Origin: Sphaerodactylus townsendi
Taxonomy: Eukaryota
Direction of reading: 5' to 3'
Length of the DNA: 64,000 nucleotides
Assembly (NCBI RefSeq): GCF_021028975.2
Contig: NC_059439.1
Coordinates: forward strand, 38,936,001-39,000,000
The notes under the pieces were generated by a model. That model was given only the letters and a program-made list of their open reading frames with translations, did no database searches and was not told the origin of the DNA. Numbering within the stretch: the stretch's first letter is position 1; each line of letters begins with the position of its first letter. The position numbers and the translations under genes are program-made. This document shows positions 12,356 to 40,581 of the stretch, piece after piece.

Positions 12356-12950
12356 AGCGCCCATTAAAACACTCTAAGGATTGGAGCTCTTCTAACCCGG
12401 ATGGTCTGGGCTCCCCTGCTACGCTTGGCTGAGTGGTTCTCCGGATCGGCCCTGGCTAGTATTTGGAAGTCGCAGGTTGCCGTGCAGAGGCAGCAGGTGA
12501 CGGCAAACCACCTCTGCGTGTTTCTTGCCTTGACTGAGTGGTCCAGGCTGGCTGGGCCACGTCAGAGTTAGTTTGGAAGCTCATCTGGGGACTTGGAGGG
12601 GGTGGCCCCGCAGAGGCAGAGCAGCTCAGGTCCGGGGCGTCTCTTGCCTTTGAAGCCTCGCCAGGGTCTTGGGTGCGGCCGGAGGGCTCTTCCCTTCACC
12701 CCCCAAGGAGTGGGGGGGGGGTCCCATCTCATCCCCTGGGAAGGCATGCAGAGGGAGCAGCAGCAGCCCCCGAGCGAGCTCCCTGCCGGGCCACTGAGGG
12801 GTTCCCTCCCTGCCCTCTGCCGCAGCCAGCCGCGCTCCACTCCGGCCACTGAGGGATGGGTGGACAGGCCGACCGACCGGCCGACCCCTCGCCCTCCGCC
12901 TGCCCCGGGGCGTCCTGGGAAATGTAGTCCTCCTCGGGCAGGCGGCTCTA

Positions 12951-16164
<3,214 letters not shown>

Positions 16165-17107
16165 AGGATGGAGGGGCCAAGTTCTGCATGCTGGGTGAGT
16201 GGGTGGGTGGGGGAATCCCGCCCTTCCCCTGGCCTCCTCTGGAGGAACCTCGGAGCTCTTGATTCCTAGGAGCAGCAGTGGCGTAGGAGGTTAAGAGCTC
16301 GTGTATCTAATCTGGAGGAACCGGGTTTGATTCTCCGCTCTGCCGCCTGAGCTGTGGAGGCTTCTCTGGGGAATTCAGATATGCACTCCCACACACGCCA
16401 GCTGGGTGACCTTGGGCTAGTCACAGCTTCTCGGAGCTCTCTCAGCCCCACCCACCTCACAGGGTGTTTGTTGTGAGGGGGGAAGGGCAAGGAGATTGTC
16501 AGCCCCTTTGAGTCTCCTGCAGGAGAGAAAGGGGGGATATAAATCCAAACTCTTCTCTTCTTCTTCTTCTAGGGAGTCGGGGCGGTACCCCCATTCCACC
16601 AAGGCCAGTGTACCAGCTCTTGAATAGAAATTAAAAACACAGATAAGCCACAGACGGCGGGCTCTCTCGCATTAATAATATTTTCCATGCCTGTTTTCAG
16701 TCTATTCTGAGTTTGGGAATCCTGATCTCGGCATCCTCTCAACAGTAGCCCTGATCTGGGATACTTTTAAGGACAGACCTCAGGAAATGGCTTTTCACAC
16801 AAGCTGTAAATAAATCTCAAAATCCACCCCCAAAAGTGGGGAGGCACAGCTGCCTTTGGGTTATTTTTTAGTGTTAGGAAACTTCAGGTCATTTATTTTA
16901 TTGACTGAATTTATACCCGACTTTTTCCCCAACAGGAACTCAAGGTGTGTTTTAAATTTAAATTTAATTCTATCTAATGGGGTTTGTTTGTATATGCTAT
17001 ATGTAGGGCGGGATAAAAAAACCCCATAAATATGTAGGGTGGGATATATGTAGGGTGGGATAAAAAACCCATAAAAAACCCTTCGGGGGTAGGGCGGTAT
17101 AAAAAAA

Positions 17108-17159
<52 letters not shown>

Positions 17160-18033
17160 CCCCATAAATATATAGAATATATATATATAACCCCATAAAT
17201 ATATATATAACCCCATAAAGAATANNNNNNNNNNNNNNNNNNNNNNNNNNNNNNNNNNNNNNNNNNNNNNNNNNNNNNNNNNNNNNNNNNNNNNNNNNNN
17301 NNNNNNNNNNNNNNNNNNNNNNNNNNNNNNNNNNNNNNNNNNNNNNNNNNNNNNNNNNNNNNNNNNNNNNNNNNNNNNNNNNNNNNNNNNTCTCCATTTT
17401 ATCCTCACCACAAGACTGTGAGGTAGGTCAGGTGGACGGACCAAACCACAAGTGAGTTTCCATGGCAAAGGAGGGATTTGAACCAGGTTCTTTCAGATTC
17501 TAATCCAACACTCTAACTGCTATTCCATGCTGGGTCACGGAGTGCAAGTAAACCAAAGGCCATTAACTACAACAGCTTAATCGAACCTCCATGTCCAAAG
17601 GCAGTTTACCTCTGAAGACCAGATGCTGAGGGATGTAGGACAGCTGGAGAGCCATGCACATCTGGGCAGGAACTTCTCTGGCCGCTTGGAAGCAGAATTC
17701 TAGACTTGGTGGGTCTCTCTGGGCTCACTCTGACCCTGGCAATCCTTATAACCCTGCGAGGGAGGCTGGCTTGCCCGGGGAGTCCCCGTGGGCTTCAATC
17801 ACAGCTCAGCAGATATTGGAGGTCACCCCCACGTGGATGACGCCGCCCCACTTTGAAGGTCCCGTTCTGAACGCAAAGCTACCCCCCGTCCGAGACACGA
17901 CCACACCGACTGCCACGCTATCACGCGTTTATTTGCTCGTGACGCCCCATGGCCATTGGCTACACACCAGTTAGCCCCTCCCCCTTCCCTGCTCTCCTCC
18001 CGGCAGCCTGCCCGGTCCGTGCCTCAGCCGTGC

Positions 18034-21000
18034 TCAGCCCTTGAGTTCCATCTCGCACACCCAGCTGTATCGGTGCATGCAAGGATCCTCGTTCCATAGC
18101 CCGTCCCGGTGGAGGTGGACACAGATCACCACATTGTTTACTCCTTGGAAGAAGTGGTAGGGGTGTCCGGTTTTCCAGTCTCTGAGATAGCAAAGCAAAG
18201 GGAGGGGGCGGAGAAGTTAGAAGCCAGAGGCCCCCCTGGAAATCTCCCCTTCCCTTCCTGTTTGCAGAGGGTGGGGGAGGCTGAGATAAGTGTTCACTTC
18301 CTAGAGATGCCTTTGGGGGAGACAGCCACGCCCTGGGGATTTGGGGGGGCTCTGACCTCTGGAAGTGTGCCGGGGGATCCACGTGGGGTGGCTAACCTGG
18401 GTGGGATCATCTGAGGATCCCAACTCATTCCCAGACCACAGAGATCAGTTCACTTGGAGAAAATGGCTGCTCAGGCAGCAGCTGTGATTGGAGGCAAGCG
18501 CCGGCCGCCATTTTGTGACTGGTTCCGTCCCCTGCAGAAGCCATTTGCTGCCTATGCCCACCCCACCCCACTGCCAGCAGAGCCCCTCAGGTAGCCTCAA
18601 CTAGTTTTATTGGACCCGGATCATTTCTAGGGCCGTGGTGGCGAACCTTTGGCCCTCCAGATGTTATGGACTACAATTCCCATCAGCCCCTGCCAGCATG
18701 GTCAATTGGCCGTGCTGGCAGGGACTGATGGGAATTGTAGTCCATAACATCTGGAGTGCCAAAGGTTCGCCACCACTGTTCTAGGGTCCCCCTCTTGCAA
18801 GGCATGAAGGGGACGGGCCCCTGGAGGCTAGCAGAGGCTGCGACCCATAAGCCCCAGAGCGACAACCCCCCACCAGTGGTGGGATCCAAAAATTTTAGTA
18901 ACAGGTTCCCATGGTGGTGGGATTCAAACTGTGGCGTAGTGCCAATGGGGCTGGGTGGGGCATGATGGGGGTGTGGCCGGGCATTCCAGGGGCAGGGCAT
19001 TCCTGGGCGGGGCTGTGGCAAGGACCTTGGGCGAGAAACGAATGCACGCAGGCGCAGGCTGCCACGCACGCCGGTGCACCTCCTGCTAGGCTGCTTCCAG
19101 TTCTGCGCGCTACTGCTGAGAGGAGGGGCGTAACTAAGGCAAAAATCACTTGGCAAAATCACCCATTAGTAACCCCCTCTCGGCACACACAAATAATTAG
19201 TCACCTACTCTCGGGAACCTGTGAGAACCTGCTGGATCCCACCTCTGCCCCCCACCCACCCACTGTGCAGCCAGCCCGTTGACAACCCCCCCAGGGGGCT
19301 GACACTCTCTGGCAAACTCCTCCTCCTCAGCCGGCCTCGGGACTCACATTCTGCGGACGCTGTACGATGTCCCGTCCACCCACTTCCAGCTGCTGCTGGA
19401 GAAGGACAACCCGATCCACGCGTACCGCGGCTTCGTGCGCTTGGCCACGAATTGCTAGTGCGAGAGGGGATGCAAACAGGGCGGTCTGTGAACATTTGCT
19501 GCCCACCTCAAAGACCCGCTGGGAGGGCAGCAGGCCACGCGACTCCCCCTGCCCGCCCAGCCAGGAGAGAGAGCCGGGTGCTTCTGCCGTCAAAAACACT
19601 CCCTTGACATTTGGGGCAGAGGGAGGTCGGAGGGGGCTTGGGAGGGCTGGCGCCATGCCCAGCGGGGCAACAGGCAGCTCACCCCACTGCCCTGCCAGGC
19701 TGGCTTGGTGTTTGGGGTGGGGGTGGGGTTGGAGGGGAAGGAAGTGGCGGCGGATGAATCCACAATCCCACTTAGATCTTTTGGTGGGAAAATGCAGCTG
19801 GCTCACCTGCTCCAGGTAGGATGTGATGGTGACCAGGTGGGCATCCTTGTCCTCGCAGTCAGCTTTGGCTTCGTCCCACGACTTCTCTGCCCTGGAGACC
19901 CAATAGCAGTGACTGGCAAAGGAATCCCAGCCTGCCGGGCAGCAGGGCGCTCTGCTCACTGGCGGGAGGAAGCGGGAAGGCTTAGGTGGGGCTCTTGGAA
20001 TAATGGCCGCCTTTCTCTCCCGCGCTCCGGGATGACGGGGTGGGCACGGGGAAGGAGCAGGATGGAGCTCAGGAGCAGAAGGAGAGTCAGGTGGGGGGAG
20101 TGGGTCGCTCTGCCAGAGCACAAAGGCCGGGGGGGGGGGGGCTGGAGGCAAACATGAGGGGCACGGAAATGGGCCTGAAAAGTGGGGAAAGGTTGCCNNN
20201 NNNNNNNNNNNNNNNNNNNNNNNNNNNNNNNNNNNNNNNNNNNNNNNNNNNNNNNNNNNNNNNNNNNNNNNNNNNNNNNNNNNNNNNNNNNNNNNNNNNN
20301 NNNNNNNNNNNNNNNNNNNNNNNNNNNNNNNNNNNNNNNNNNNNNNNNNNNNNNNNNNNNNNNNNNNNNNNNNNNNNNNNNNNNNNNNNNNNNNNNNNNN
20401 NNNNNNNNNNNNNNTTTGGATTTTTATCCCCTCTTTCTCTCCTGTAAGGAGACTCAAAGGGGCTTACAAACTCCTTTCTCTTCCCCACCCCCCCAACAAA
20501 CACCCTGTGAGGTGGGTGGGGCTGAGAGAGCTCCAAAGAACCATGACTAGCCCGAGGTCACCCAGCTGGCATGTGTGGGAGTGCACAGGCTAATCTGGTT
20601 CCCCAGATAAGCCTCCTATGGACGGAGGTCTCCCATCCACAGGACTCTAGCACCAAAGCTGGTCCCACTGGAACGTCTCACTACTTGGGGAAGTTAGGGG
20701 GGGGATGAGTGGCAGCCAGATCCCGGCCTCCCCCTCTGCCTTACTCTCTGCAGGCACCCTCCAATCGCCCTCCAGACCTGTCCGGTTGTGCTTAATATCC
20801 TCCACGTTGCAGTTCATGGTGTTGAGGGTGTTCCGCAGGTTTCCCACTTTGCCCTGGACCTCAGACTTCACTGGAGAAGGAAGGAAGGCAGGAGAGCCGG
20901 GGGTCAGTTCCATGGGGAGCCCGGGGGGGGGGGGGGCACCTTTGAGATTCACAAGGTTTTATTCCCTAAAAGCTTCAGCCTGAGAGGTGCCACTCGGCTT

Positions 21001-24000
21001 ACGTTCATGCGTTGTCCGGAGGGGTTACCTTGGGATCGCAGACATGCATTCATGTGCCCCTACTCCCAAACCCTCATGCGCTACGTGCTGCGAGCCCTCA
21101 GCTCCCACAGTAACCCACCTTTTCCCATCTCGTCGGTCAGGTGCTCCACAGCCTTGTTGAACTTGGCCAGTTTCTTCAAGTCGTCTGTCTCTGCAATTAG
21201 TTTCAGNNNNNNNNNNNNNNNNNNNNNNNNNNNNNNNNNNNNNNNNNNNNNNNNNNNNNNNNNNNNNNNNNNNNNNNNNNNNNNNNNNNNNNNNNNNNNN
21301 NNNNNNNNNNNNNNNNNNNNNNNNNNNNNNNNNNNNNNNNNNNNNNNNNNNNNNNNNNNNNNNNNNNNNNNNNNNNNNNNNNNNNNNNNNNNNNNNNNNN
21401 NNNNNNNNNNNNNNNNNNNNNCCCTTTCTCTCCTGCAGGAGACTCAAAGGGGCTGACAATCTCCTTGCCCTTCCCCCCTCACAACAAACACCCTATGAGG
21501 TGGGTGGGGCTGAGAGAGCTCCGAGAAGCTGTGACTAGCCCAAGGTCACCCAGCTGGTGTGTGTGGGAGTGTATAGGCTAATCTGAATTCCCCAGATAAG
21601 CCTCCACAGCTCAGGCGGCAGAGCGGGGAATCAAACCCGGTTCCTCCAGATTAGATACGCAAGCTCTTAACCTCCTACGCCACTGCTGCTCCTGTGATTC
21701 AAGCCCCCCGAGAGCTCAGGCGCTCCAAATCTCGTCCTCCCGCCCCCCCCAAAATCAGGTCGGTCTCTCTCTGGGGCTGTTGCACCTGCGTCTCAGTGTC
21801 TCTGCACCCAGGTCCATTTATCCTGTGCCCCCCCTCCCCCAAGCAGCTCCATGTGTTTCTCTCCTCCCCATTTTATCCTCACGAGGTAAATTGGGCTGGG
21901 AGAGTAACTATCCCAAGAGTGCCCTGGGCTCAGTGGCACAGGGAGGATTGGAACTCGGCTCTCCCAGGGTCTAGCCCAGCACCCTGACTGCTACAGCCAC
22001 TACAGCAGGAATAATCATTCTTGTGGTTCTTTGACATGCCACCTGTGGTTCTTCAGAGCACCCTCCCCCCCCCCCAATGTGGCACAGACCAACACCATGT
22101 TCCAGGAAAGGGGCCCTGGCCCGGCTGGGCTGATGCTGTGCGGGTGGCTCACACAGGTGGAGGGTCTCCCAGGCTACAAGCAAGCTCGGCGCCTTCCTGG
22201 GGGGGCAGGTCAGGTGCGGGGGGGGGGGGGGAAGGCAAGGCGCAGAGGTGGGATCCAGCAGGTTCTCACCAGTTCCCAAGAGTGGGTTACTAATTATTTG
22301 TGTGTGCCGAGAGGGGGTTACTCATTGGGTCCGCTTTCCCATCTCCACGCCCTCGCCTCCCCGAGAGGCATCCTGCCTTTGAACGTGAAGGTTCCACATA
22401 GCAATTGCGACTAATAATGCATCTCCCTGAACTGGGTTAATCCCTTCCAGGTCCTGCAATTAATTGATTCTCAGCCTTTCGTGCCTTTTATCTCCCCAGT
22501 CTCTATCAAAGAACCTGTGTGTTTCACCATTGCTGTGTTCACATTGGTGAGTTGGGGCATTTTCTATAATGTGATGATGATTTAAAAATGACCTGGTGCA
22601 AAAAAATTTTGGGGGGTCGTGGTGGGGTGGCTGCCCATGGGGGGGGGCATCCAACTCAGGTTTTGCCCAGGGCTCAGGTTTGCCTAGGTACGCCTCCGCC
22701 CCCTTTGCTGGGGGGCGGGGCTGGCGAGGGAACCTGTTACTAAAATTTTTTGGATCCCACCACTGGGCAAGGGCCTGTTGCCGATCTGTACACCTTAATT
22801 CAGGAGGAGGGCAAAGAACCGTCTGGTGGCTGGAAATTCAGTGCAGAGCTCAGCCGGGTCCCGGGTCCCTCTCCAGGTGCTCCTACAGCACCTCCAGAAT
22901 TACCCTCTCTGGGGGTCTCCTCGGGAGGAGCCCTCAACTCACCCTTCTGTTTCAGAGCGAGCATCTCCGTGGAGATCGAGCGGTTGACCTTCTGGAGCAT
23001 CTCCTCCATCTTCTTCAGGTCTTTGCCAGCCATGTGGCCTGGGGGGGCGGGGTGGGGGGGGGCAAAGGGGTCAGAAGATCCAGGCGAGATAAATGCACAC
23101 CTGCACGGGCTAGCTTTCCAGTCACATGGCATGACCTATTGCTTGGAGCAGCCCGATCCAGGAAGGGGCCGGTCCGGCTCAAGGTCTTGATTCCCTCCTG
23201 CCGTTTGTGGCAACGGGTGTTGCTTCCTGGACACCCCCCACACCCCCGCTGAGCCCCCTGGAAGCACCATGCCAGGGGGCGTGCCTTGCTTGGAGTGACC
23301 CTCAGAATTCCCACTCGCTCGGCTTTGTAGGTCTCCCCAGCTTCTTCCAAACTCTTCCCCAAACCCCAGATGCCTCCCCTTCCTCCCCACACACAGCCAG
23401 CTTCCAGCCCTCATCTGTTCCTTTGGCAGCAATAATTCTGGTGCCTTCTCCTGCTGCCCCACGGCTACTTGTGGGTCACAAGCAGAGCGCAGAGATGGTG
23501 GCCCTGTGGCCACAGTAGGCGATTATGGCACAGCCAGGTCATATTCTTCATACAAACACAAGTTGTGGTCTGGAGCAGCCTGAGGAACACCCCCCCCCCC
23601 CCCCACATCCATTGAATGAGTCAACGGTGGCCAAATAGGGGAGCTCAAAATGCCCTCCATATTATCCTTATAACAACAACGCTGCGGGGTAGGCTGGGCC
23701 AAGAATGAGAGTGGGCTGTCCTCAGGTCATCTGGTGAGCTTTATGACCAAGTGAAGGTCTGATTCCAGGTTTCCCTCGTCCTCCGCTGATGTCCAACCTG
23801 CAATGCCCCCTCCCCCCTGCAGGACAGCCACTTCGTCCTCCTGCCCCCCCTCCCCACCCCACGTGGGCCACGGAGCCACTCACCCGTAATGCCAAAGACG
23901 ACTGTCAGGAGGCTGATCAGACCAATGAATCCCAGCAGGGCCAGAGCAAGACGGCCGCTGGAGCAGACACGCTGCCACCCGGACTGGGGTTCAGGAAAGC

Positions 24001-24009
24001 CCATAGAGG
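18034..24009 (-). CDS. Asialoglycoprotein receptor-like type II C-type lectin, non-canonical paralog (5' coding exons uncertain)
   Basis: Exons 24009-23884 (TM: RLALALLGFIGLISLLTVVFGITG), 23038-22943, 21190-21119, 20870-20778 (neck), 19958-19807 (CCPAGWDSFASHCYW..), 19454-19348 (WIGL..WKWVDG), 18181-18034 (..HPY..C..WNEDPC..WVCE, stop). Sizes 126/96/72/93/152/107/148, all in frame; AATAAA on minus at 17933-17928. Candidate upstream in-frame exons 25146-25064 and 27373-27318. Confidence 0.88.
18633..18778. mobile_element. Palindromic short hAT MITE (other copies near 1-102, 4027-4155, 41814-41986, 44103-44230, 45199-45346, 48860-49005, 51057-51202, 51630-51764, 54884-55019, 56735-56864)
   Basis: Near-perfect fold-back around CATGGCCAATTGGCCATG; 8-bp TSDs such as TTCTAGGG, AAATAGAC, ATTTAGAA, CATTAGAA, ATATGGGG. 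Confidence 0.9.
18874..19247. mobile_element. CpG-rich hAT MITE, GGGATCC-TIR family (other copies 22243-22765 variant, 24117-24507, 28050-28440, 33342-33732)
   Basis: TIRs CAGTGGTGGGATCCA / CAGAGGTGGGATCCA; 8-bp TSDs CCCCCCAC, GATCTGGC, ATGTCATG. Confidence 0.9.
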
Positions 24010-25499
24010 CTGCGGAGAGAGCACAATTATTTGCACGGCACCCTTTTCGGCAGAGTGGGCTACCTCCTTCCACAACTGCAGCAGGCGAAAATGGATCCAG
24101 AGGGATGGGATCTGGCCAGAGGTGGGATCCAGCAGGTTCTCACAGGTTCCCGAGAGTAGGTTACTAATTATTTGCGTGTGCCGAGAGGGGGTTACTAATT
24201 GGTGATTTTGCCATGTGATTGTTGCCTTAGTTACGCCCCTCCTCTCAGCAGTAGCGCGCAGAACTTGAAGCAGGCTAGCAGGAGGTGCACCGGCGTGCGT
24301 GGCAGCCTGCGCCTGCATGCATTTGTTTCCCACCCAAGGACCGGCGCAGCAGCTGCGTCTTTGCCACAGCCCCGCCCAGGAATGCCCTGCCCCTGGAATG
24401 CCCGGTCACACCCCATCGTGCCCCGCCCAGCCTCATTGGCGCTACGCCACAGTTTGAATCCCACCACCATGGGAACCTGTTACTAAAATTTTTGGATCCT
24501 ACCACTGGATCTGGCTTTAGGAAAATGCGACGCGACACATGGGCCTTCCCCTTGACTGGCTACCTGACCCTTCCCAAGAAAGAGAAAGGGCAGCCGTGGG
24601 GATTCTTGGACAGGGGGAGGGGGGAGGGGAAGGGGTCCGCAAAGGATCCTGGGGCCTGGGAAAGGAAGGGGGGCTGGGCAGAGAGAGTTCATGGCAGGTG
24701 TCAATCAAAACGGGCGTTTGCTGGTGGGGCCGTGCCCCCCTGTCTCTCCCACACGCCGCTTTTAACCTGCACCTCTGTGTTCTGTATCGAGAGCTTATCG
24801 TTTTAGGACTCCGTGATCACTGAAGTCTGGCGAGAGGGGAACCTGAAATCAGAGAAGCCGGGTGTGTGTGTGTTAAGTTCCAAGTCTTGAACTAATCCAC
24901 AAAACCGAGACCTCAAACCACTGTTGTGAAAAGAGTAAGCAGCCAAATCCGTGGCACCACAATAAGAACGCCCACACGCGCCAAACATGCTTTCCCCAGA
25001 CCTGAGCGGGTAGGGCGAACGGGGTGTGCGGAAGGGCCCCCCAGTCCCTGCTTTACCTCCTACCTCCTTGCTCTGGGGCTGACGCTCTGGGGCTGACTCC
25101 CTCCTCTTGTGTCCGCTGCGCTTTCCCCTCTCCGGTGTCCTTTGAACTGTCAACAGTTCCCAAACCCAGGAGAGGTGCCAGCTTGGTCAAAGAGGACCAG
25201 CTTCCTTTCGCTCCATTCTGAGCCTGTCCGTGCAAAGCTCCGGCTCTATGCTCAGGTAGGATCCAGCCCCCAGGTGCTGAGCAAGCCCAGAGAGAGCCCT
25301 GATTCTGGCAGCAGGGAGCAAACACAAACGACACAGACCTGTGTCTCCCGGGGGTCGACAAGAGCTTTTGCATGAGCTGGTTGCTGCTCTTGGTCTGTTC
25401 CAGAACTTAAATGGCTCTTCTCTTCCTTTGGCTTGTAGCACCAGAAAAAGGCTTGGCTGTCAGTTGAATGGAGGGGGTGGATACTGCCCAATGTCCACA

Positions 25500-25998
25500 A
25501 CTTCCTGTGGACCAAGGCTCGGGCAGCTGTGTTTCCCTCAAGCTCACAAGAACTCCCTCACGCGAAAGGGATCTGGGAGTCTTAGTAGACCACAAACTGA
25601 ACATGAGTCAGCAGTGTGATGCGGCGGCCAAGAAGGCCAACCTGATTGTGGGCTGTATCAATTGGAGTATAGTGTCTAGATCGAGTGATGTAATTGTACC
25701 TCTCTATTCCTACTCTAGGAGCCATGTGGTGTAGTGGTTAAGTGCTTGCACTGCCACTCACACGGTCAGGAGTTTGAGCCCCCTGTGGGTCAGATATCCT
25801 AGCAGCTGGCTCATGGTCAACTCAGCCAGCCATCCATTCCTAGGTTGGTAAATGAGTACCTAGCACATAGCTAGGGGTAAAGAATAGATGGGGAAAGCAA
25901 TGGGAAACTACTCCCAAAAACAGCTTGCCTATGAAATCACTGCTTGCAGTGGTACCCCAGGGTCGGACATGACTGAAGGGGAAACTTTACCTTTTTTA
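25500..25998 (+). mobile_element. Old CR1 fragment (ERDLGVLVDHKLNMSQQCDAAAKKAN) followed by an older tRNA SINE
   Basis: Canonical CR1 ORF2 peptide at about 25560-25710; A/B boxes at about 25725-25782. Confidence 0.7.
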
Positions 25999-26014: not shown

Positions 26015-26882
26015 GGATTGTTACCAATAATTACGGATTACTAAAACCAATTATTACCAATTATTACCGATTACCTAAACCGATTATTGCCGATTACTAA
26101 AATGAGTATTACCAATTATTACTAATTACCAAAACCAATTGTTGCCAATTATTAACAATTACTGGAACTGATTTTTACCAATTATTACCAATAACTGAAA
26201 CCAATTATTAATGATTATTATCGATTATTGAAACCAAGTATTACAGATTATTACTGATTACCGAAACCAATTATTGCCAATACCAAAACCGATGATTTCC
26301 AATTACTACCTATTAGTGAAACGATTACCGATAATTACCGATTACTGAAACCGATTATTATCGATTACTGAAGCCGATTATTACCGATTACTGAAACCGA
26401 TTATTACCGATTATTACCAATTACTAAAACTGATTATTACCGATTACCAATATAAATTATTATCAATTACTATAACCAAATATTACCGATGATTACTAAT
26501 TACTGAAATGGATTACTGCCAATTATTCCCGATACCAAAACTGATTATTGCCAATTGTTCATGATTACTGAAACCGATTATTACCGATTATCATGGATTA
26601 TTGAAAACGATTATTATCGATTACTAAAACTGGTTATTACTGATTATTACGGATTACTGATACCGAGTATTACCAATTATTACCGATTACCAAAACCTGA
26701 TTATTATCGATTACTGAAACCGAGTATCACCGATTATTACCGATTACCAAAACCGATTACTGAAACCGAGTATCACCAATTATTACTGATTACCAACACC
26801 TGATTATTATCGATTACTGAAACCGAGTATTACCGATTATTACTGATTACCAAAACCGATTATTACCGATTACTGAAACCGC
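26015..26882. repeat. Low-complexity satellite built from TTATTACCGA / TTACTGAAACCGA words
   Basis: About 870 bp of degenerate 7-13-bp units. Confidence 0.9.
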
Positions 26883-27317
26883 GTATCTCACAGAGGGAGG
26901 TGTCCGGACACGCAATGGTATTGAAGTCCCCAGTATTGCATCCAGAAGTGAATGAGAATAAAGGCAAGAAAACCAATGTATCTTAATATTTGCTATAGGG
27001 TGGTAGGGTGGTATTCTTAAGTGCGTGCAACGAACAGGATTCTTTGAGGATGCTCATTGGCAGAATACACCAGGAGTGTGAAGCATTTATTCAGATGTAG
27101 AGTGTTGACCAAAACAGCTAACCAGAGCCAGTAAAGACAGGGTGATGTGGGGGTGGGGGGAAGAGACAAAATTCCTGGGGGGCCCAAGTTAGCTGGAGGA
27201 CCCCTGAAGCCAGACCATGTAACATTCAAAGGCATTTCCATTTCTTTTACTCGTAACGTAATTGTGCACGACAACCACTAGGGCTGCAGGGAAGGCAGAG
27301 CACAGCAAATAGTTCAC

Positions 27318-27490: not shown

Positions 27491-28871
27491 TTTTCCTCTT
27501 CTTTTCCTCCAGCTCAGCTCCATCGTGTTTTGTGTGGTCCACCAGATCTTCCCTGTTAGTGTCATAGAAAATAAAACCTTTCTTCCCCCCCCCCCCTGAT
27601 TTCTCTTCCTCCTTCCCACCCTTTTCTCCTTTCAATTTGCACTCTTTTCATTAAATGCCTGCATTTCTCTCGCACCCCTTCTAATTCCCACCCTTCTTTT
27701 TTGTCAGTCTTGGTCTCGGCTCCTTCCCATTCCTGGTTGGCATCTTAGAATGAACTTCATAGCAGCAAACCTTGTTAATATTAGGAACAGAAGCAGGTGG
27801 TGGGGGAGTTAATATTTCCTCATGGTCTATCGAAGTAGTAAAAGGATGCCTCCCTTTACATGCATGGTAATGGAATGTTGATCTGTTTTACAGGTTACGT
27901 AGATGGAACAGAACAGAAGTTAACCCTTCCTACCATAATTAGATAGATTAATATTACATTTTAGACTCTGTTCAGGCAGTGAGTTGCTGTGGAATATCTG
28001 ATACCCCATAGTAAATACTACTTTGCTATTGTAGACATTACATGTCATGCAGTTGTGGGATCCAAAAATTTTAGTAACAGGTTCCCATGGTGGTGGGATT
28101 CAAACTGTGGCGTAGCGCCAATGGGGCTGGGCGGGGCACGACGGGGGTGTGGCCGGGCATTCCGGGGGCGGGGCATTCCTGGGGGGGCTGTGGCAAGGAC
28201 GCAGCCGCTGCGCCGGTCCTTGGGCGGGAAACGAATGCACGCAGGCGCAGGCTGCCACGCACGCCGGTGCACCTCCTGCTAGACTGCTTCAAGTTCTGCG
28301 CGCTACTGCTGAGAGGAGGGGCGTAACTAAGGCAAAAATCACGTGGCAAAATCACCAATTAGTAACCCCCTCTCGGTACACACAAATAATTATTAACCTA
28401 CTCTCGGGAACCTGTGAGAACCTGCTGGATCCCACCTCTGATGTCATGTTACATGAGAAATTACACCTTTTTTAGAAAATAGGTTAGCAAAATCTGTCCC
28501 AATGATTCCAGCACAAATTTGTCTTCCTTTTGTGCTAGGTACAGGTACGAGAGTAAACTTAAATAGATTTCTTACTCATTATTTATGAAAAATATGAAGT
28601 TGAGATATGAAGTTTTTGTGAACTACAGCCCGTTTCATCAGGTGTAAGATGTCTGTCCAATATTACTGCACATATGCATGGGGGTACAAATATAAAATTA
28701 GAAAACAAGAGATGATTTGGATCAGAATCATCCAATGGATGAGATGAATTATTGCACTTCTAAAGCTCGTGCGGAAGAAGTAAAAGCCCCAACTTCTCTA
28801 CCCATGAGGCACTCTTGTAACATGGGAGTCACAGCAGACTTCCGGGATTCCCGTCCTCTAGAGTCTAGACT

Positions 28872-31800
28872 CTAGACCTTCAGTTCCTTCTCACACATCC
28901 AAGCGAATGAACGGGAACAGTGGTTATCGTTCCAGCGGCCATCAGGATACGTGTGGACGCAGTCTTCCCCTCCCCCGAGGGTGTGGCCATACCAGTGGTC
29001 TGGCTGACCTTCACCCCAGTCCCTAAAACAAAAGAGACATTTTAAAAAATATATATATTAAATGTGCATTTCCAGATGTGTCTTCCTAACTGTGTCTGAA
29101 TACACAAGTTAAACTCAGTACACAATTCCCACCCACAATTCCCAACTGAAACCCTGAAGCCATCTTTGAGAACAACTAATCTAAGGGCAGAACAGCCCAA
29201 GAAGGTCCCTGCAGAAGCACGACAACTAGTGAGCGAGACATTCAGCACATGCTCAGAGGAATGTTCTCTTTCTCTGAGACTTTTAAGGAAACAACTGAAT
29301 GGAAAACTCCTGGTGTCTTTTTACCGCTGTGCTATAGAGAGTGTCTTAACCTCCTGCATCTGTGTATGGTTCTCCAGTTGCACAGTGGCAGATAGGAAGG
29401 CGCTCCAAAGGGTGATCACTCCTGCACAGAGGATCATCGGCTGCCCTCTCCCCTCCTTGGAAGAACTCTATCATTCCCGAAGCCGAAAGAAAGCCCAAAA
29501 TATTCTGAGAGACCCGTCTCATCCAGCACACTCTCTTTTTGAACTGTGACCATCCTGCAGACGATACAGGTCTATAAAAACTAGGACAAAGAGGCATAGA
29601 GACAGCTTCTACTCTAGAGCTGTGGCTATGCTGAACTCCGCGGCTTCGTGTTGATGTGTTTGGGGCTGTGTAGGGATGGGTGGAGGAAGGGGAAAGGGAG
29701 GGTGGGGTATGAGTCTGAAATTGTGTGCCTCGAGGAATGCGGCTGTAAATTTAGTTGTGCGTCCACAATGACAATAAAATGCTTATGCTTATGCACACAG
29801 GCAAGCTATACCAAAACCAGGGGCCAGGCAGTGTAGTAATGCACTGCTGACCCAGCAGCGCCGTGGTAGAACGTTGGGTGGTGGGGGGGCGTCTCGCCTA
29901 TTCCTTAGCGACGACCCTGCGGGGTTGACTACAAGGCAGAGTGAAACCAAGTATTGATTTTTCTGCTACTCCCCACCCCTCCCTGAACCCACCCACTGCA
30001 AGCAGAGGAGGCAGCCTCAGATGAAAATAAATCTTACTCCAGCGGATGTTAAAGATGTCAACAACCACAAAAGAACCAAAGGACAGAAAAGGTTGAGGAC
30101 AGAACTGACGAGAATTATTATGGTCAGGAAGGGGTTATCTGACAGCCCCAAACAACTGGCGCCTTCCTTCCTCTGCTCTTTATAGGAAGCTTTGCATTTT
30201 CCATTTTATCTGCACAACAAAAAGGGCTAGAAACATTTTTTTTAAGTGCAAGCTAAGAATTCAGAGGAAAACATGGCATATTTCTCTGGGGGCATTTCCC
30301 CATATGCCCCTCCATAGCTATAGGCCTCAGAAGCTTACAAACGAGGCACATGTGTGAAGGAATCCCTATCTTGTCCCCCACTCCTCTGAAGATGCCAGCC
30401 ACAGATGCAGGCGAAACGTCAGGACAAAATGCTACTGGAACATGGCCATACAACCTGGAAAACCCACAACACCCTAGTGATTCTGGCTGCGAAAGGCTTT
30501 GACAATACATTGAACTTAATTATCTTCTGAGTGGTGAATGAAGATGTAACCCTCATGCTCAGAATGGGTTGACCCAGAAAGGGGTGGAGACCCAAAGCAG
30601 GAGGAGGCTGCAGACCTCATGTAGTTTGGAGGAGACAAGGCTACCAGACTCGGACCTTGGTTTGTAGAAGCCCTTAACACCTTGTGAAGGTAACTGCAAT
30701 GTTGTTGGGAACTACTGGGAGGGTAGTTGTTTGTTTTTGCTGTGTTGTAAATGTTGGAGTTTACTGTTTCAGGGTTTTTGTGGTTGTCATGGGTGAGAGT
30801 TCTCCTGGAAACCTTCATCATGTTGAATCCTGTTCATCAAGCCCTTGGAGTCTTCAGGAGCCAACCCTCTTGCAAAGAAGAATTGGACTTGGCAGTATCA
30901 GTAGACTGTAAATATAAGGACTTGAAAATGCAACCTGAACAGGACCTTGAAGTGTAATGTTAAATGTTGATGTTATATATTATATGTTAAGAAAGTAAAC
31001 CATTTTGTTTTTTTTAAATTTGTTGTTGCAAACTCATTCCAAGTTCTGCCCCACAGAACCCACAAGCTGAGGTTACAAAGGCACAGCACAAGAGCGGGGG
31101 GGAGGTGATGGTGGGCTGTGTGGTTCACGGGACTCACTCTGAGCGGACGGTGTAGCCTGTCTCATCCACCCACTTCCACGTCCCGCTGACATCTGTCAGG
31201 CCGATCCACATGTAAGCCGACCTCCTGAGCTCATCCACAAACTTCTAGCAAAAGGAAACAACTGAGATGTTTGCTGATCCCACAGCACCCACGCTTCCAC
31301 CCCTCCGAGGTAGATGGCCCGCCCTGCAGGAGGACTACAGCGCTGTCAGTGTTCTGTGTTCAGTTCTGGTTGCCACATCTCAAAAAAGGATATTGAGGAG
31401 ATAGAAAAAGTGCAGAGAAGGGCAACGAGGATGATTGAAGGATTGGAGCACCTTCCTTATGAGGAGAGGCTGCAGCGTTTGGGACTCTTTAGTTGGAGAG
31501 GAGACATCTGAGGGGGGATATGATTGAAGTCTATAAAATTATGCATGGGGTAGAAAATGTTGACAGGGAGAAATTTTTCTCTCTTTCTCACAATACTAGA
31601 ACCAGGGGGCATTCATTGAAAATGCTGGGGGGAAGAATTAGGACTAATAAAAGGAAACACCTCTTCACGCAACGTGTGATTGGTGTTTGGAATATGCTGC
31701 CACAGGAGGTGGTGATGGCCACTCACCTGGATAGCTTTAAAAAGGGCTTGGACAGATTTATGGAGGAGAAGTCAATTTATGGCTACCAATCTTGATCCTC

Positions 31801-34800
31801 CTTGATCTGAGATTGCAAATGCCTTAGCAGACCAGGTGCTCAGGAGCAGCAGCAGCAGAAGGCCATTGCTTTCACATCCTGCAGGTGAGCTCCCAAAGGC
31901 ATCTGGTGGGCCACTGCGAGTAGCAGAGTGCTGGACTAGATGGACTCTGGTCTGATCCAGCAGGCTAGTTCTTATGTTCTTATGTTCTTAACACTTACTT
32001 TCTCCTCAGGTGAATTGATGATAATCAGGTGGGACTCTTTGCCTTCACAGTCCCGCTTGGCCTCCATCCAGGGCCGCTGAAGACGGGACATCCAATAGCA
32101 GCTCTCGTGATGGACTGCCCAGCCTTTAGGGCAGCAGCCGGACTTACTACCTGTTAGGGGAGGAGAAATCAAAGCGTTGCCCCTGAGCCACCAACGTGTG
32201 TGAGCCCACGGATGCACTTCTGGGGTTGGATCCAGCCATCTTTCCCCCCTCGGCCTGGATCGGTTCCTTCTCCTCTGACACGCTTTCCATCCACAAAGGT
32301 CCCACGATCCCATTCCATGATGGTTGGGTTTGGGGGGGGGGGGGACAGTCTCTCCTCAGTGGAGCAGCAGTGGCGTAGTGGCTAAGAGCAGTGGCTAAGA
32401 GCAGGTGCACTCTGATCTGGAGGAACCGGGTTTGATTCCCAGCTCTGCCGCTTGAGTTGTAGAGGCTTATCTGAGGAATTCAGATTAGCCTGTGCACTCC
32501 CACACATGCCAGCAGGGTGACCTTGGGCTAGTCACAGCTTCTCGGAGCTCTCTCAGCCCCACCCACCTCACAGGGTGTTTGTTGTGAGGGGGGAAGGGCA
32601 AGGAGACTGTAAGCCCCTTTGAGTCTCCTGCAGGAGAGAAAGGGGGAATATAAATCCAAACTCCTCCTCTTCTTCTTCTTCAATGGGGAGCTGCCTCCAG
32701 GGCCATACTGGGATTTACAGGTTTGCTAGTAATCAAATAATACATTCAGGCCACACAAACATCAGTGGAGGGAGGGGGGGGGGGAAGGGGACAGTCCTAA
32801 CCAACCAAGTAGCCCCACGGACCGGACCCTCATCCAGCTTTTCCCCTTTACCCAGTTCGTCTCCCCACCCGCCTCTTTGGTCTCTTCAGTACCGTTGCTT
32901 TGTAGCTCCACCAGCTGACAACGCAGCGAGTTCGAGTCCTGGTGCAGGATCGCCAGCAAGCTTTCCAGCCGCTTCTTGACTGACGGAGGAAAGAGGCAGG
33001 AAAGAAGGAGCGTGAGCCCCAGGCTAGGGAGTTGCCAACCTCCAGGGGTAGCCTGGTGATCTCCCACACGACAGAGGTCAGTTTCTCTGAAGAAAATGGC
33101 CGCTTTGGGGAGAGGTCCGGCCCAGCCCAGCCCGCCCGGGGGCTGAGTCATCAGGCCAGCTTCCCCCGCATCCCCCAGCCACAAAGGAGCACAAGCGGCC
33201 ACCAAGCATGGCCACGCCAGGCCCTCACTTTTCTCTGTCTCGTTGCCCTCGCGGCCCAAGGTCTGCTCCAACGTGGTCAGTCGTGAGCTGGTGCTGTTTC
33301 CTAGAACAGACAATAGAAAGACTATGCAGGTAGGGGGGCTGCAGAGGTGGGATCCAGCAGGTTCTCACAGGTTCCGGAGAGTAGGTTACTCATTATTTGT
33401 GTGTGCCGAGAGGGGGTTACTAATGGGTGATTTTGCCACGTGATTTTTGCCTTAGTTACGCCCCTCCTCTCAGCAGTAGTGCGCAGAACTTGGAGCAGTC
33501 TAGCAGGAGGTGCACCGCGTGCGTGGCAGCCTGCGCCTGCGTGCATTCGTTTCCCGCCCAAGGACCGGCGCAGCGGCTGCGTCCTTGCCACAGCCCCGCC
33601 CAGCAATGCCCCGCCCCCGGAATGCCCAGCCACGGCCCTGTCGTGCCCCGCCCAGCCCCATTGGTGCTTCGCCACAGTTTGAATCCCACCACCATGGGAA
33701 CCTGTTACTAAAATTTTTGGATCCCACCACTGGGTGGCTGGTCTCGATGTCCCCAGGAACTGCATGTGATCTCCAGGCGACAGAGAGATCTCCTCCCCAG
33801 GATCAAATGGCTCTTTTGAGAGGTACCTACTGATGCCCCTCCCCTCCTCAGATCCCCCTTGCCCAGGCTCTCCCCCTGACGTCTTGTTGTCAGCAGCCAC
33901 AAGGCCGGCTGTGGCCAGGGATGGGCGGAGTACAATAAAATAAATCCCTGAGCCTGTGGCTTGCAGCCAGCTCTGATTTCAGGGGCAACCGCAACATTGC
34001 AGGGGCTTTTCTGCACGGCAGACAGGAACCACAGGGCCCGCATCTGTGCCGGTCACTTTCTTGCCACTACACAAGCATCCACAACCACACAGGGGTGGGG
34101 TGAGGGGGGGGATTTCAACCCCAGCCTCTCCTCTTTTACTCACGCTTCTGCTGGAGGCTGCTGAGGCCCACCGAGACGGTCTTGTTGAAGCTCTGGAGGG
34201 ACTCCCAGGTCTCCTGCTGCGCTGTGCCAAACTGTGCCCCTGGCAAGAAGCAAATCGAGGGGATGCTGAAAAGTGGGTCTGCTGGAGGCTCGAGGTGCTC
34301 GGTTGCCCCACCTGCCCCCAGGATGGAGCCGCCCTGTCAGCCAGATCCAAGCCCAGCTCCGCAGGGGTTTGCCTCAAACCCAGACCCGGCAGCCCAAATC
34401 CATAAGAACATAAGAACTAGCCAGCTGGATCAGACCAGAGTCCATCTAGTCCAGCACTCTGCTACTCGCAGTGGCCCACCAAGTGCCTTTGGGAGCTCAC
34501 GTGCAGGAGGTGAAAGCAAGGGCCTTCTGCTGCTGCTGCTGCTCCTGAGCACCTGTTCTGCTCAGGCATTTGCAATCTGAGATCAAGGAGGATCAAGATT
34601 GGTAGCCAGAGATCGACTTCTCCTCCATAAATCTGTCCAAGCCCCTTTTAAAGCTATCCAGATGAGTGGCCATCACCACCCCCTGCGGCAGCATATTCCA
34701 AACAGCAATCACATGTTTTGTGAAGAAGTGTTTCCTTTTATTAGTCCTAAAAGCGGAACCCACCATCTCCCACTTCGAGGAGAGCGAATCGAGCCCCTGC

Positions 34801-36854
34801 AGAGCTCTGGTACCCCCCTAGTTGTTTTATCTATTCGGGGGCTTGGCCAGAGGATCCTGCCAGTCTGCCATCCCTTTGCCCAGCTGCCACTCACCCTTGG
34901 TGCCCATAATAATGACCAGAAGGCTGAGCACAGCGCAGAGGCCGGCCACGAGGAGGAGCAGGCGGCTGGTGGGGCAGATCCGGTCCAATGCCGACTGGGG
35001 TGGCGGCAACCCTGTGGGTACCAGAAGAGACGTTTCTATGCTGAGATGTGCCTCTTGCCGAGTTTTGCCAGGCCTCCAAGCAAGCGCCAAAACCCAGTGG
35101 ATCCAGGGAACTTGGGGGTTTGCATGAAGCCAGTGAGTGGGAGACTCTTGGGGGAAAGAAGGCAGGAGTCCAGGGAAGGGATTGCAGTGATGGAACAAAC
35201 ACAGCGATCCAGAAGGCAGGACAAGGAACCCCCCAGAAGGGACGCCCAACAGGGAGGAAGCGGTGGAGGCCGCTGAGCCCCAGGCCTTCATGTGGGTCTT
35301 CCAGAGTTGCCAACCTCCAGGCGGGGTCTGGCGATCTCCCAGAATTACAAGTGGATCTCCAGACTACACCAATCAGTGGGCTGCCTGGAGGGTGGACGTG
35401 AGGGCATTAGACCTTTCCAAGATCCCTCCCCTCCCCAGGTTCTATCCCAAATCTCCAGGGGTTTCCTGTTCCAGAGTTGGCAACCCTTGGATCTGCCGTC
35501 CCATGGTGTCCAAACCGTCCTTCCCACAGCTCTTCCAGTCCTCCCCCAACAGATCCAGTCCCAGGAGAAAGGTTGACTTCCCCCCGTTTCTTGCTGGGTT
35601 TATATGTCCCACGTGTCTGGTTGGCCCCACTTGGCAATATCCCCACATCTCAAGGCACCTCTCCCAAAGTGTTTCCGCCCTTCCTCTGCCATGTCCGTGG
35701 ATTTGAGATCTTGGTAGTCCTGGGCGACTGTGGGTTCGGGTTCAGAGGCGCTGAAGCTGGAAAGGAAGAGAGGCCAGAGGTTCAAATCGCCCGTGATGCA
35801 AACTGTTTAATCTCAAATGCGTTAGTCACGCTCTCCGTCTGGCCTACTTTACAGGGCTGTTGCAAACAGTGCTGTGTTTATTTTCACTAAACGAGCTTCA
35901 GTTTAGGGCACTGATGGCGAACCTTTTCGAGACGGAGTGCCCAAACTGCAACCCAAAACCCACTTATTTATCGCAAAGTGCCAGCATGGCAATTTAACCT
36001 GAATACTGAGGTTTTAGTTTAGAAAAAACTGTTGGCTCAGAGGCATGCATTACTCGGGAGTAAGCTTGGTGGTAGTCGGTGGCTTTGCTTTGAAGCAACC
36101 GTGCAACTCTTCCAACGGGTGAGTCACAACCCTAGGAGGGTTTACTCAGAAGCAAGCCCCATTGCCAGCAACCGAGTTTACTCCCAGGTAAAGGATTGCG
36201 CTTTTGCTCTTTGCATGAAAATCAGTGGGGTTTAACAGTGCTTACAGGGTTACCTACACTGCTTCCCCAAAACTAGGTCTTAGGTTTAATGCTAATAATC
36301 GAGCTCAGCAGCCCAGGCCAGCCTAGATGTGGGGGGGGGGGGCACTCTGTTTGCGGGTGCCCACAGAGAGGGCTGAGTGCCACCTCTGGCACCCGTGCCA
36401 TAGGTTCACCACCACTGGTTTAGGGCCTTGGATTATGAGGAGCTTCTAAATACAGGAAAACCACCACAAAATACTACAGGACCACTCTACTGGTACTGCT
36501 CCGGGGCTTCTTAAACTTGACGCAGCATGAAGCTTCTAGAAGTGCTTGACCCTAGCCACGGGTGTGTGATGCTAAAAAGTGAGGGAGGCCCAGTTCTCCA
36601 GATTAGAACCCACCTGCTTTTAACCACTACACCACGCTGGCTCTCACACTGGCTGTGAGATGCTGCCATCCCTGCCGGTCGCAGTTTCTGCACTCTGAAC
36701 TGCGGTGCGCTCTTCTCGAGTCCCAGAAACACTCGCCAAGGCAGCAAGACTCCGGGGTCCTGGCTCAACCCACACCCCTGAGCACGGCTGACATTTCTGA
36801 CGCTCTCCACACCCCTCCGCTCCAATAAACTTACTTCGCAAAAGACGTGGCCAT
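28872..36854 (-). CDS. ASGR1: Asialoglycoprotein receptor 1-like (ASGR1/CLEC10A family) Gal/GalNAc C-type lectin, 299 aa
   Basis: Exons 36854-36835 (MATSFA), 35756-35659 (..QDYQDLK..), 35011-34895 (TM), 34239-34144, 33300-33229, 32979-32893, 32150-31999, 31244-31138, 29022-28872 ([25 protein letters not shown], stop). Sizes 117/96/72/87/152/107 fit the ASGR layout; YQDL endocytosis motif, QPD and WND present. One-to-one orthology versus ASGR2/CLEC10A is not provable here. Confidence 0.85.
29270..29794 (+). mobile_element. Rex1/Babar-like LINE 3' fragment (second copy)
   Basis: Same protein segment, same premature TGA and same tail as 7674-8220. Confidence 0.8.
30378..30512 (+). mobile_element. 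Penelope-like element terminus containing a type I hammerhead ribozyme motif
   Basis: TCCT-CTGAAGA-T-GCC..GGC-GAAAC-GTC-AGGA at 30382-30424, followed by the typical PLE end ..GAAAGGCTTTGACAATAC. Confidence 0.75.
30545..31077 (+). mobile_element. Solo LTR
   Basis: TG..CA ends with inverted termini TGTAACC / GGTTACA, 533 bp, internal TATA-like and AGTAAA signals, imperfect 4-bp TSD AAGA/AAGG. Confidence 0.65.
31335..31990 (+). mobile_element. CR1 LINE 3' end (other copies: - 34401-34750, + 38632-38980, - 55024-56081, + 56965-57652)
   Basis: [44 protein letters not shown]; (TTCTTATG)n tail. Confidence 0.92.
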
Positions 36855-39261: not shown

Positions 39262-40581
39262 GATTGTGTGTTGTAAGGGTGTGACATCCTCAAATGCAAC
39301 ATTTGGAGTTCGGGGTGGAGGGGAAGCAAAGCACTGCTGCTTTGTGTGTTGTGGGGTATGAGGGTGTTGCATCCTCAAATGCAACATCTGGTTCTCGGGG
39401 GGGGGAGAAAAGCAAAGCGGTGCTGCTTTGTGTGTTGTAGGGTGTTGCATCCTCAAATACAACATCTGGCACTTGGGGGGGACTAAAGCACTGCTGCTTT
39501 GTGCGTTGTAGGGTGTGAGGGTGTTGCATCCTCAAATGCAACATCTGGTTCTCGGGGAGGGGGGAGAAAAGCAAAGCAGTGCTGCTTTGTGTGTTGTAGG
39601 GTGTTGCATCCTAAAATACAACATCTGGCGCTGGGGGGGACTAAAGCGCTGCTGCCTTGTGAATTGTAGGGTGTGAGGGTGTTGCATCCTCAAATGCAAC
39701 ATCTGGTTCTCGGGGGGAGAAAAGCAAAGCGGTGCTGCTTTGTGCTGTGTTGCATCCTCAAATACAACATCTGGCACTTGGGGGCAACTAAAGCGCTGCT
39801 GCTTTGTGCGTTGTAGGGTGTGAGGGTGTTGCATCCTCAAATGCAACATCTGGTGCTCGGGGGGGGAAGAAAAGCAAAGCGCTGCTGCTTTGTGTGTTGT
39901 GGGGTGTTGCATCCTCAAATACAACATCTGGCACTCGGGGGGACTAAAGCGCTGCTGCTTTGTGCGTTGTAGGGTGTGAGGGTGTTGCATCCTCAAATGC
40001 AACATCTGGTTCTGGGGGGGGGGAGAAAAGCAAAGCGGTGCTGCTTTGTGCTGTGTTGCATCCTCAAATACAACATCACAGCGCAGGGAACGCTAAAGCG
40101 CTGCTGCTTTGTGCGTTGTAGGGTGTGAGGGTATTTGCATCCTCAAATGCAACATCTACAATTGGCGCGGGGAAAAAGCAAAGTGCTGCTGCTTTGTGTG
40201 TTGTGGGGTGTTGCATCCTCAAATACAACATCTGGCACTCGGGGGGACTAAAGCGCTGCTGCTTTGTGCGTTGTAGGGTGTGAGGGTGTTGCATCCTCAA
40301 ATACAACATCTGGCGCTCGGGGGGGGAAGAAAAGCAAAGCGCTGCTGCTTTTTGTGTTGTGGGGTGTTGCATCCTCAAATGCAACATCTGGTGCTCGGGG
40401 GGGGAGAAAAGCAAAGCGCTGCTGCTTTGTGTGTTGTGGGGTGTTGCATCCTCAAATACAACATCTGGCACTCGGGGGGACTAAAGCGCTGCTGCTTTGT
40501 GCGTTGTAGGGTGTGAGGGTGTTGCATCCTCAAATGCAACATCTGGTGCTCGGGGGGAGAAAGGCAAAGCGCTGCTGCTGC
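39262..40581. repeat. Minisatellite, about 17 units of about 78 bp with A/B alternation
   Basis: Core GTGTTGCATCCTCAAAT(G/A)CAACATCTGG recurs every 69-85 bp. Confidence 0.93.

What the first reader, a model, noticed from the sequence alone, without database searches (positions are those of the whole stretch)
18034..24009. ASGR-like lectin with an intact fold but a degenerate Ca2+/galactose site
Seen: relative to its neighbour, QPD becomes [15 protein letters not shown] becomes FFQGVNNVVIC, WND becomes WNE and WIGLTD becomes WIGLSF. All CRD cysteines, WIGL, the neck exons, the TM segment and the juxtamembrane Cys are conserved, and there are no stops. No YxxPhi motif appears in the candidate tail. 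Known: QPD, E, WND and the Gly-rich loop define Ca2+-dependent Gal/GalNAc binding; both mammalian ASGR subunits retain QPD. Inference: a Ca2+-independent protein- or lipid-binding receptor, or a non-binding partner subunit that co-assembles with the canonical receptor and borrows its YQDL signal.
Basis: partly seen in the sequence, partly recalled or inferred. Interest (0 to 1): 0.75.

Follow-up and report, generated by a model that had tools for sequence, protein, structure and literature searches.

The report
Sugar-blind lizard and snake ASGR paralog
Lizards and snakes share an intact extra copy of the asialoglycoprotein receptor gene that has lost the residues that hold calcium and galactose but conserves a different, basic set of residues, so it likely works as a sugar-blind partner subunit or receptor.

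Summary
The gene (Sphaerodactylus townsendi, RefSeq 'ASGR1-like') has seven intact coding exons, and its Ca2+/galactose site is degenerate as described. It is not one gecko's oddity. It belongs to a squamate-wide orthogroup ('B', 27 sequences with the last exon, 25 from named species). None keeps all five site-2 ligands, whereas 26 of 26 sequences of the two canonical squamate paralogs (A, C) do. In six matched species, long-loop identity is 10% in B against 86-91%, while the RRIDW, RDGLW and alpha2-beta2 segments are better conserved in B than in the paralogs. B is sister to paralog C, not to its neighbour A. The missing YxxPhi is explained: its exon survives as a frameshifted relic at 24842-24757; only 4 of 25 orthologs keep the motif. 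Site-4 acidic residues are kept, so 'Ca2+-independent' applies to the sugar site only. Most likely: a sugar-blind accessory subunit, like mammalian ASGR2 but further degenerated, partnering C (0.45); rival: stand-alone receptor (0.3). Binding, partner and tissue are untested. Sugar loss in C-type lectin domains is common; this ASGR-lineage case was not found in my searches. New variant of a known kind; interest 0.5.

The parts
18034..18181 (-). Gene B last exon: long loop, beta3-beta5, stop codon; HPY / VIC / WNE in place of QPD / EDC / WND
19348..19454 (-). Gene B CRD exon 2: alpha2, KPRY, WIGLSF, WKWVDG, RR (skipped in RefSeq isoform X2)
19807..19958 (-). Gene B CRD exon 1: CC motif, alpha1, site-4 segment ITSYLE
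20778..20870 (-). Gene B neck exon 3, with conserved neck cysteine
21119..21190 (-). Gene B neck exon 2
22943..23038 (-). Gene B neck exon 1 (cassette; skipped in RefSeq isoform X3)
   Evidence: matched by one contig of run X4
23884..24009 (-). Gene B exon with ATG at 24004 (start of UniRef model P0004), juxtamembrane Cys and transmembrane segment
24503..24692 (-). 5' coding exon of the RefSeq models (Tyr-free, Pro-rich, no counterpart in the orthologs); its donor lies in the end of a high-copy repeat (about 24117-24508); probably partly or wholly 5' UTR (inferred)
24757..24842 (-). Decayed relic of the ancestral cytoplasmic-tail exon: ALDTEHRG (24794) and QVKSG (24769) in different frames, stop codons, no ATG, GC at the donor
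17928..17933 (-). AATAAA about 100 nt after the stop, likely poly(A) signal
28872..36854 (-). Neighbour gene A, nine exons, 299 aa, MATSF...YQDL, canonical QPD/EDC/WND

Best explanation
This gene is an intact, squamate-wide paralog of the asialoglycoprotein receptor that lacks the ligands of Ca2+ sites 1 and 2, and it likely works as a sugar-blind accessory subunit that would co-assemble through its conserved neck with a canonical paralog (most likely C) and likely adds a newly conserved basic surface. Shown: intact frame, orthogroup, loss of ligands, shift of constraint, repeated absence of the YxxPhi tail, relic exon. From established lectin knowledge: no Ca2+-dependent Gal/GalNAc binding (about 0.9). 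Inferred: B arose by duplication of C before crown squamates split. Its long loop was released from constraint. K186, R212, R213 and R239 form one patch that binds a conserved self partner (a protein, an anionic ligand or a neighbouring subunit). Tail-less B is internalised, if at all, by a partner's YxxPhi.
For: Ligand loss: 0 of 27 B sequences keep all five site-2 ligands (maximum 3), and 0 of 27 keep the site-1 Asp after WIGL, which is Phe or Tyr in 17. All 26 A and C sequences are canonical. Even the EPN-like lineages vary: EPD, EPN and EPG occur among three Podarcis species. Constraint shift, mean pairwise identity in six matched species, A/B/C: loop 91/10/86; residues 195-200 54/19/89; 244-253 82/39/83; but 207-216 (RRIDW) 52/81/56; RDGLW 55/87/60; alpha2-beta2 24/64/53; neck 45/50/41. 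Mean CRD net charge: B +0.4, A -5.3, C -9.8. Fold intact: best Foldseek hits are MGL, ASGR1 and ASGR2, TM-score 0.85-0.92 by target. B+C clade 98. YxxPhi at the homologous place: C 13 of 13, B 4 of 25. Family precedent: a review states that H2 does not bind glycans on its own and acts as a scaffold (PMC12367805, passages), and orangutan ASGR2 has Phe where ASGR1-type tails have Tyr.
Against: The newly conserved basic segments fit a stand-alone receptor equally well. The B and C necks are only 29% identical in S. townsendi, and C does not lie in the window. Four orthologs keep their own YxxPhi, so a partner is not needed there. Ortholog N-termini are automated predictions, so some tail losses may be annotation errors; only the S. 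townsendi loss was checked in DNA. That the basic residues are adjacent in space is recalled from the fold; it was not measured on the model. The tree is a quick search with SH-aLRT support only. Reviews disagree on ASGR2: one gives it measurable Gal/GalNAc binding (PMC7404283, passages).
Confidence: 0.45

Rival explanations
1. B is a stand-alone homotrimeric receptor or adhesion molecule. It binds a conserved protein, lipid or anionic glycan through the RRIDW / RDGLW / alpha2-beta2 surface and does not need endocytosis, as CD23 or LOX-1 do with non-sugar ligands (recalled).
For: Three CRD segments are better conserved in B than in either sugar-binding paralog, and the net charge shifts by about 10 units relative to C. 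Human MGL, the top structural hit, binds E. coli lipooligosaccharide through a second surface (residues 202-216) even when QPD is mutated (PMC10538476, passages). The matching segment is 73% conserved in B.
Against: The MGL second-site segment is about as conserved in A and C (62, 68), so it is inherited rather than new. Repeated absence of the tail motif leaves a stand-alone receptor without a known output. No ligand is known.
Confidence: 0.3
2. The variable long loop is itself the recognition surface and diversifies under pathogen pressure.
For: Loop length is 6-13 residues in B against 13 in all 26 A and C sequences. Among five lacertids 7 of 13 loop sites vary against 32 of 207 other ectodomain sites (Fisher p = 0.0025).
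Against: The lacertid tail varies nearly as much (11 of 29), which fits relaxed constraint. Pituophis and Pantherophis have identical loops, and Pogona and Salvator loops are similar across a deep split. The searches returned one B gene per species except two models each in Pituophis and Pantherophis, so there is no sign of family expansion.
Confidence: 0.1
3. B still binds sugar, either through a remodelled Ca2+ site (EPN/EPD...WSD in non-gecko lineages, mannose-like) or without Ca2+.
For: E before the Pro in 15 of 27, N/D after it in 14 of 27, final Asp in 10 of 27. An invertebrate lectin with an EPD motif binds microbial patterns (PMC3039652, passages).
Against: The site-2 Glu two residues before the loop Cys is Ala in 16 of 27, and E in only one alignment row; the WND Asn is Ser in 25 of 27. 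These positions vary within Podarcis. S. townsendi keeps 1 of 5 ligands.
Confidence: 0.1
4. A decaying duplicate or pseudogene.
For: The tail exon is truly broken in this species. RefSeq isoform X2 is frameshifted in the CRD.
Against: The frame is intact, with 41 invariant positions across 27 sequences from geckos to snakes, and some segments gained constraint.
Confidence: 0.03

Closest known systems
Mammalian ASGR2 (H2, minor subunit of the asialoglycoprotein receptor)
   Same: Same family, type II topology, neck and long-form CRD. Weakened internalisation motif (Phe for Tyr in P0230). Described as a scaffold subunit that does not bind glycan alone (PMC12367805, passages).
   Different: ASGR2 keeps QPD, EDC and WND; B has lost them. 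B is not its ortholog: the mammalian genes form their own clade and B arose from squamate paralog C.
ASGR1 and CLEC10A/MGL
   Same: Best sequence and structure hits among single-CRD proteins. MGL has a QPD-independent second surface (PMC10538476, passages).
   Different: They bind Gal/GalNAc through Ca2+ site 2 and carry YQDL or YENF. B lacks the site and mostly the motif, and its CRD is near neutral instead of about -10 to -13.
Squamate paralogs A (neighbour) and C (P0019)
   Same: A has the same exon layout; neck length and register are alike in all three. B CRD N-part is 69% identical to C and 49% to A.
   Different: A and C keep every site-1 and site-2 ligand examined and a 13-residue Gly-rich loop.
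CD23, group V CTLDs (LOX-1, CLEC-2, Dectin-1) and MCL as partner of Mincle (all recalled, not tested)
   Same: C-type lectin-like domains that turned to protein or lipid ligands, or act as partner subunits; basic patches; loss of the site-1 Asp after WIGL.
   Different: Different lineages and loci. B is a convergent case inside the ASGR lineage, between SAT2 and SENP3.

Membership tests
ASGR / hepatic lectin family (by descent) | Type II membrane protein with hepatic-lectin neck and long-form C-type domain | tested here: met
   Pfam Lectin_N 4.2e-8 and Lectin_C 2.8e-19; model has one long helix plus CTLD
ASGR / hepatic lectin family (by descent) | Phylogenetic and structural placement with ASGR1/ASGR2/CLEC10A-like proteins | tested here: met
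   Sister to canonical squamate paralog C, 98 (the tree held only ASGR-family rows); top Foldseek hits MGL, ASGR1, ASGR2
Ca2+-dependent Gal/GalNAc lectin (functional ASGR class) | QPD motif | tested here: not met
   HPY here; no QPD among 27 B sequences
Ca2+-dependent Gal/GalNAc lectin (functional ASGR class) | Site-2 Glu and WND | tested here: not met
   Val and WNE here; 0 of 27 keep all five ligands
Ca2+-dependent Gal/GalNAc lectin (functional ASGR class) | Trp plus Gly-rich loop of fixed length | tested here: not met
   Loop 6-13 residues, 10% identity in matched species
Ca2+-dependent Gal/GalNAc lectin (functional ASGR class) | Cytoplasmic YxxPhi internalisation motif | tested here: not met
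   Absent here, exon decayed; present at the homologous place in 4 of 25 orthologs with an N-terminus
Ca2+-dependent Gal/GalNAc lectin (functional ASGR class) | Measured Ca2+-dependent glycan binding | not testable with these tools
   needs a binding assay
ASGR accessory subunit (H2-like) | Co-assembly and co-expression with a major subunit | not tested
   no model of the complex and no tissue data were obtained
EPN-type mannose lectin (non-gecko orthologs) | EPN + Glu + WND complete | tested here: not met
   at most 3 of 5 ligands
Group V NK-receptor-like CTLD | No Ca2+ site 1/2 ligands | tested here: met
Group V NK-receptor-like CTLD | Descent from, and location in, the NK complex lineage | tested here: not met
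   Nearest relatives are ASGR/MGL; flanked by SAT2 and SENP3; hepatic-lectin neck

The most novel reading that the evidence does not exclude
Squamates evolved a dedicated third ASGR subunit that swapped the Ca2+/galactose site for a new basic binding surface, so that mixed trimers with the canonical subunit read galactose and a second, Ca2+-independent self ligand at once: a clearance receptor of dual specificity with no mammalian equivalent.
Probability: 0.2. Interest if true: 0.75.

Novelty: new variant of a known kind. Interest (0 to 1): 0.5.

Why it matters
The ASGR lineage is the textbook galactose receptor, and QPD, EDC and the Gly-rich loop were canonical in all 38 non-B sequences examined (WND in 37). 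B is a natural, long-lived knockout of that site in which the rest of the protein stayed under selection and gained new constraint. It therefore isolates what the ASGR scaffold does without sugar binding, which bears on the open role of mammalian ASGR2 and on QPD-independent surfaces such as MGL's. It also flags a misleading annotation: these genes are labelled 'asialoglycoprotein receptor 1(-like)' or 'CLEC10A' in many squamate genomes, so reptile ASGR1 picked by name as an outgroup may be this paralog.

Tried and rejected
No whole genome is held for this window, so paralog C could not be located and no codon-level dN/dS was possible; only proteins of orthologs were available. Complex prediction of two C ectodomains with one B ectodomain returned no model, so co-assembly stays open. 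Run search: no RNA holder listed; four runs of unrecorded kind from one study. Contigs of those runs on 22900-25500: one 154-letter contig of X4 matches only the 96-nt neck exon, with 30 and 29 unlaid flanking letters, the geometry expected of a spliced molecule. The joint is not among the 15 of 82 shown and the flanks are below the tool's 31-letter bridging rule, so this is a weak hint only. First relic test (ungapped, single frame, 24 residues) did not single out the relic; only the frameshift-tolerant two-part test did, and it was designed after I had seen the match. My first reading of the relic in one frame (VITES*ND as the decayed YQD) is not supported by the N-part profile. A hidden canonical last exon was rejected: the six-frame scan shows one QPD...WND exon, the neighbour's; three N gaps could not be read, but the frame is complete without them. 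The tree and the table held a mis-framed gene A row; corrected. The careful tree did not finish. The search of 50%-cluster representatives was crowded by multi-domain lectins; 15 of 150 hits were fetched. Earlier findings of this scan: nothing. Literature searches for a prior description listed no paper on this paralog, judged by titles and abstract starts; subscription papers and supplements were not seen.

Full report
Identity and observation. The last exon matched one database protein at 100%, a Sphaerodactylus townsendi RefSeq model named 'asialoglycoprotein receptor 1-like'. I call the gene B. Seven minus-strand exons from 24009 to 18034 have canonical splice sites, translate without an internal stop and contain the 262-residue model P0004 exactly; adding 24692-24503 gives RefSeq isoform X1. 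The neighbour (gene A, 36854-28872) is a 299-residue canonical lectin with YQDL. The pair lies between SAT2 and SENP3 exons; that these genes share human 17p13 with ASGR1 is recalled, except that PMC7404283 (passages) places CLEC10A, ASGR2 and ASGR1 there.

An orthogroup, not an accident. Homolog searches (one search listed 120 of 219 hits) gave three squamate groups. In a quick maximum-likelihood tree of 56 rows (5 of 61 dropped as partial, exon-skipped or half of a fused model) B, C and A are each one side of a branch (100, 95, 99), and B joins C at 98. S. townsendi C is P0019, annotated on a contig of the same length as B's but not in this window. B was found in geckos, a skink, a cordylid, lacertids, an amphisbaenian, a teiid, an anguid, iguanians and snakes. 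The three turtle rows and the alligator row are canonical, and no B-type sequence outside squamates appeared among the hits listed; tuatara is unknown. B therefore dates at least to the squamate ancestor (about 190-200 million years, recalled).

What was lost. Site 2 needs the QPD or EPN residues, a further Glu and WND (PMC7618208, passages and section 12; the residue mapping of sites 1 and 4 is recalled). Of 27 B sequences with the last exon, none keeps all five site-2 ligands and none keeps the site-1 Asp after WIGL. Both site-4 glutamates are kept in all 27. All 26 A and C rows are canonical. The commonest B state is EP[ND]...AxC...WS[DNE], so the ancestral B probably resembled an EPN lectin, but these positions vary even within Podarcis. 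The predicted fold is intact: CRD pLDDT is mostly 79-94 per block of ten, 59 in the loop, and mean 72 overall. The best structural matches are MGL, ASGR1 and ASGR2.

What was kept and gained. In six matched species every segment that carries a site-1 or site-2 ligand collapses in B (A/B/C identity: loop 91/10/86; 195-200 54/19/89; 244-253 82/39/83). Three other segments are better conserved in B than in the paralogs (207-216 52/81/56; RDGLW 55/87/60; alpha2-beta2 24/64/53), and the neck is at least as conserved (45/50/41). These are short segments and six species, without a significance test. B-specific conserved residues include K186, R213, I214, R239 and two neck lysines; R212 is also invariant. 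CRD net charge averages +0.4 in B (19 rows), -5.3 in A and -9.8 in C. This is a shift of constraint, not decay. That these residues form one surface is recalled from the fold and was not measured.

The tail. C keeps YxxPhi in 13 of 13 rows and A in 9 of 13. B keeps it at the homologous place in 4 of the 25 rows that have an N-terminus (two rows lack one); Salvator has a YLHV further down. In the window the ancestral tail exon survives as a relic at 24842-24757. ALDTEHRG is the best of 63,309 minus-strand positions for a profile of six non-gecko tails. QVKSG is the best of 4,859 positions in the upstream interval for four gecko N-termini. Their combined score (35.2) is the highest on either strand; the next independent one is 29.0. 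The two pieces are in different frames, with stops, no ATG and a GC donor. The test was built after seeing the match, and a single-frame test had failed. Four other gecko models are similarly short and start at or next to the equivalent of QVKSG, which suggests a shared gecko lesion (inference). The RefSeq 5' exon ends at a donor in the edge of a high-copy repeat and has no counterpart in orthologs.

Mechanism. Shown: intact gene, loss of the canonical ligands, new conserved basic segments, conserved neck, dispensable tail. From lectin biochemistry: no canonical Ca2+-dependent galactose binding (about 0.9). Inferred and preferred (0.45): B is an accessory subunit, analogous to ASGR2, which one review describes as non-binding alone and scaffold-like (PMC12367805, passages), although another reports some binding (PMC7404283, passages). 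The partner would more likely be C than the neighbour A, because C is B's sister and always has YxxPhi, while Euleptes lacks the motif in both A and B. Main rival (0.3): a stand-alone receptor using the new surface; MGL shows that this fold can bind lipooligosaccharide without QPD (PMC10538476, passages), but that surface is no more than slightly better conserved in B (73 against 62 and 68). The two readings are compatible. A loop under pathogen-driven selection (0.1) is weakened because lacertid loops (7 of 13 sites) vary little more than their tails (11 of 29) and two colubrid genera share one loop. Residual sugar binding gets 0.1 and pseudogene 0.03.

Novelty. By descent B belongs to the ASGR family; by function it fails every sequence test of a Gal/GalNAc lectin. 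C-type domains that abandoned sugar are well known (recalled: CD23, group V receptors), so the kind is not new. Six full-text searches listed no description of this paralog; I saw listings and abstract starts, plus passages of PMC13355650, which uses reptile ASGR1 only as an outgroup. Subscription papers and supplements were not seen. Verdict: real, functional, a new variant of a known kind; interest 0.5.

Noticed in passing
window 36854-36835 and 35756-35659 (-): Neighbour gene A starts in a 20-nt coding exon (MATSFA) and carries YQDL internally; the Tyr motif is missing in A of Euleptes, Pogona and Python and altered in Pseudonaja.
   Followed up: yes
window about 12900-16200 (+): SAT2 (diamine acetyltransferase 2)-like gene; one exon in 14182-14682 identified.
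   Followed up: partly
window about 51200-52200 (+): SENP3-like protease exons; a GC-rich stretch at about 40700-41400 may be its promoter.
   Followed up: partly
window 24117-24508: Very high-copy repeat whose end supplies the splice donor of the RefSeq 5' exon of gene B; similar copies lie near 18880-19250, 28100-28430 and 33350-33730.
   Followed up: partly
window 39264-40579; 26017-26887; 582-1271; 55024-55515: Tandem arrays: 78-bp unit x17; AT-rich 33/57-bp units between genes A and B; 166-bp x3.8; 123-bp x4.
   Followed up: no
proteins P0018/P0284 and P0281/P0282: Pituophis and Pantherophis each have two B models; in Pituophis they differ mainly in neck exon 2 and share the loop, suggesting a recent colubrid duplication or haplotypes.
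   Followed up: no
protein P0061 (Phrynocephalus): Gene model fuses A and B parts, implying A-B tandem order is conserved in agamids.
   Followed up: no
protein P0202 (Malaclemys): A turtle ASGR-like protein with partly degenerate motifs (GLSN, QPDES, WNN), a possible independent drift of the site.
   Followed up: no
protein P0008 (Heteronotia): B ortholog lacks one cysteine of the inner CRD disulfide (EGHS where others have ExC).
   Followed up: no
window 61485-63023 (+): 513-codon GC-rich open frame with no Pfam match; looks like a CpG-island artefact.
   Followed up: partly
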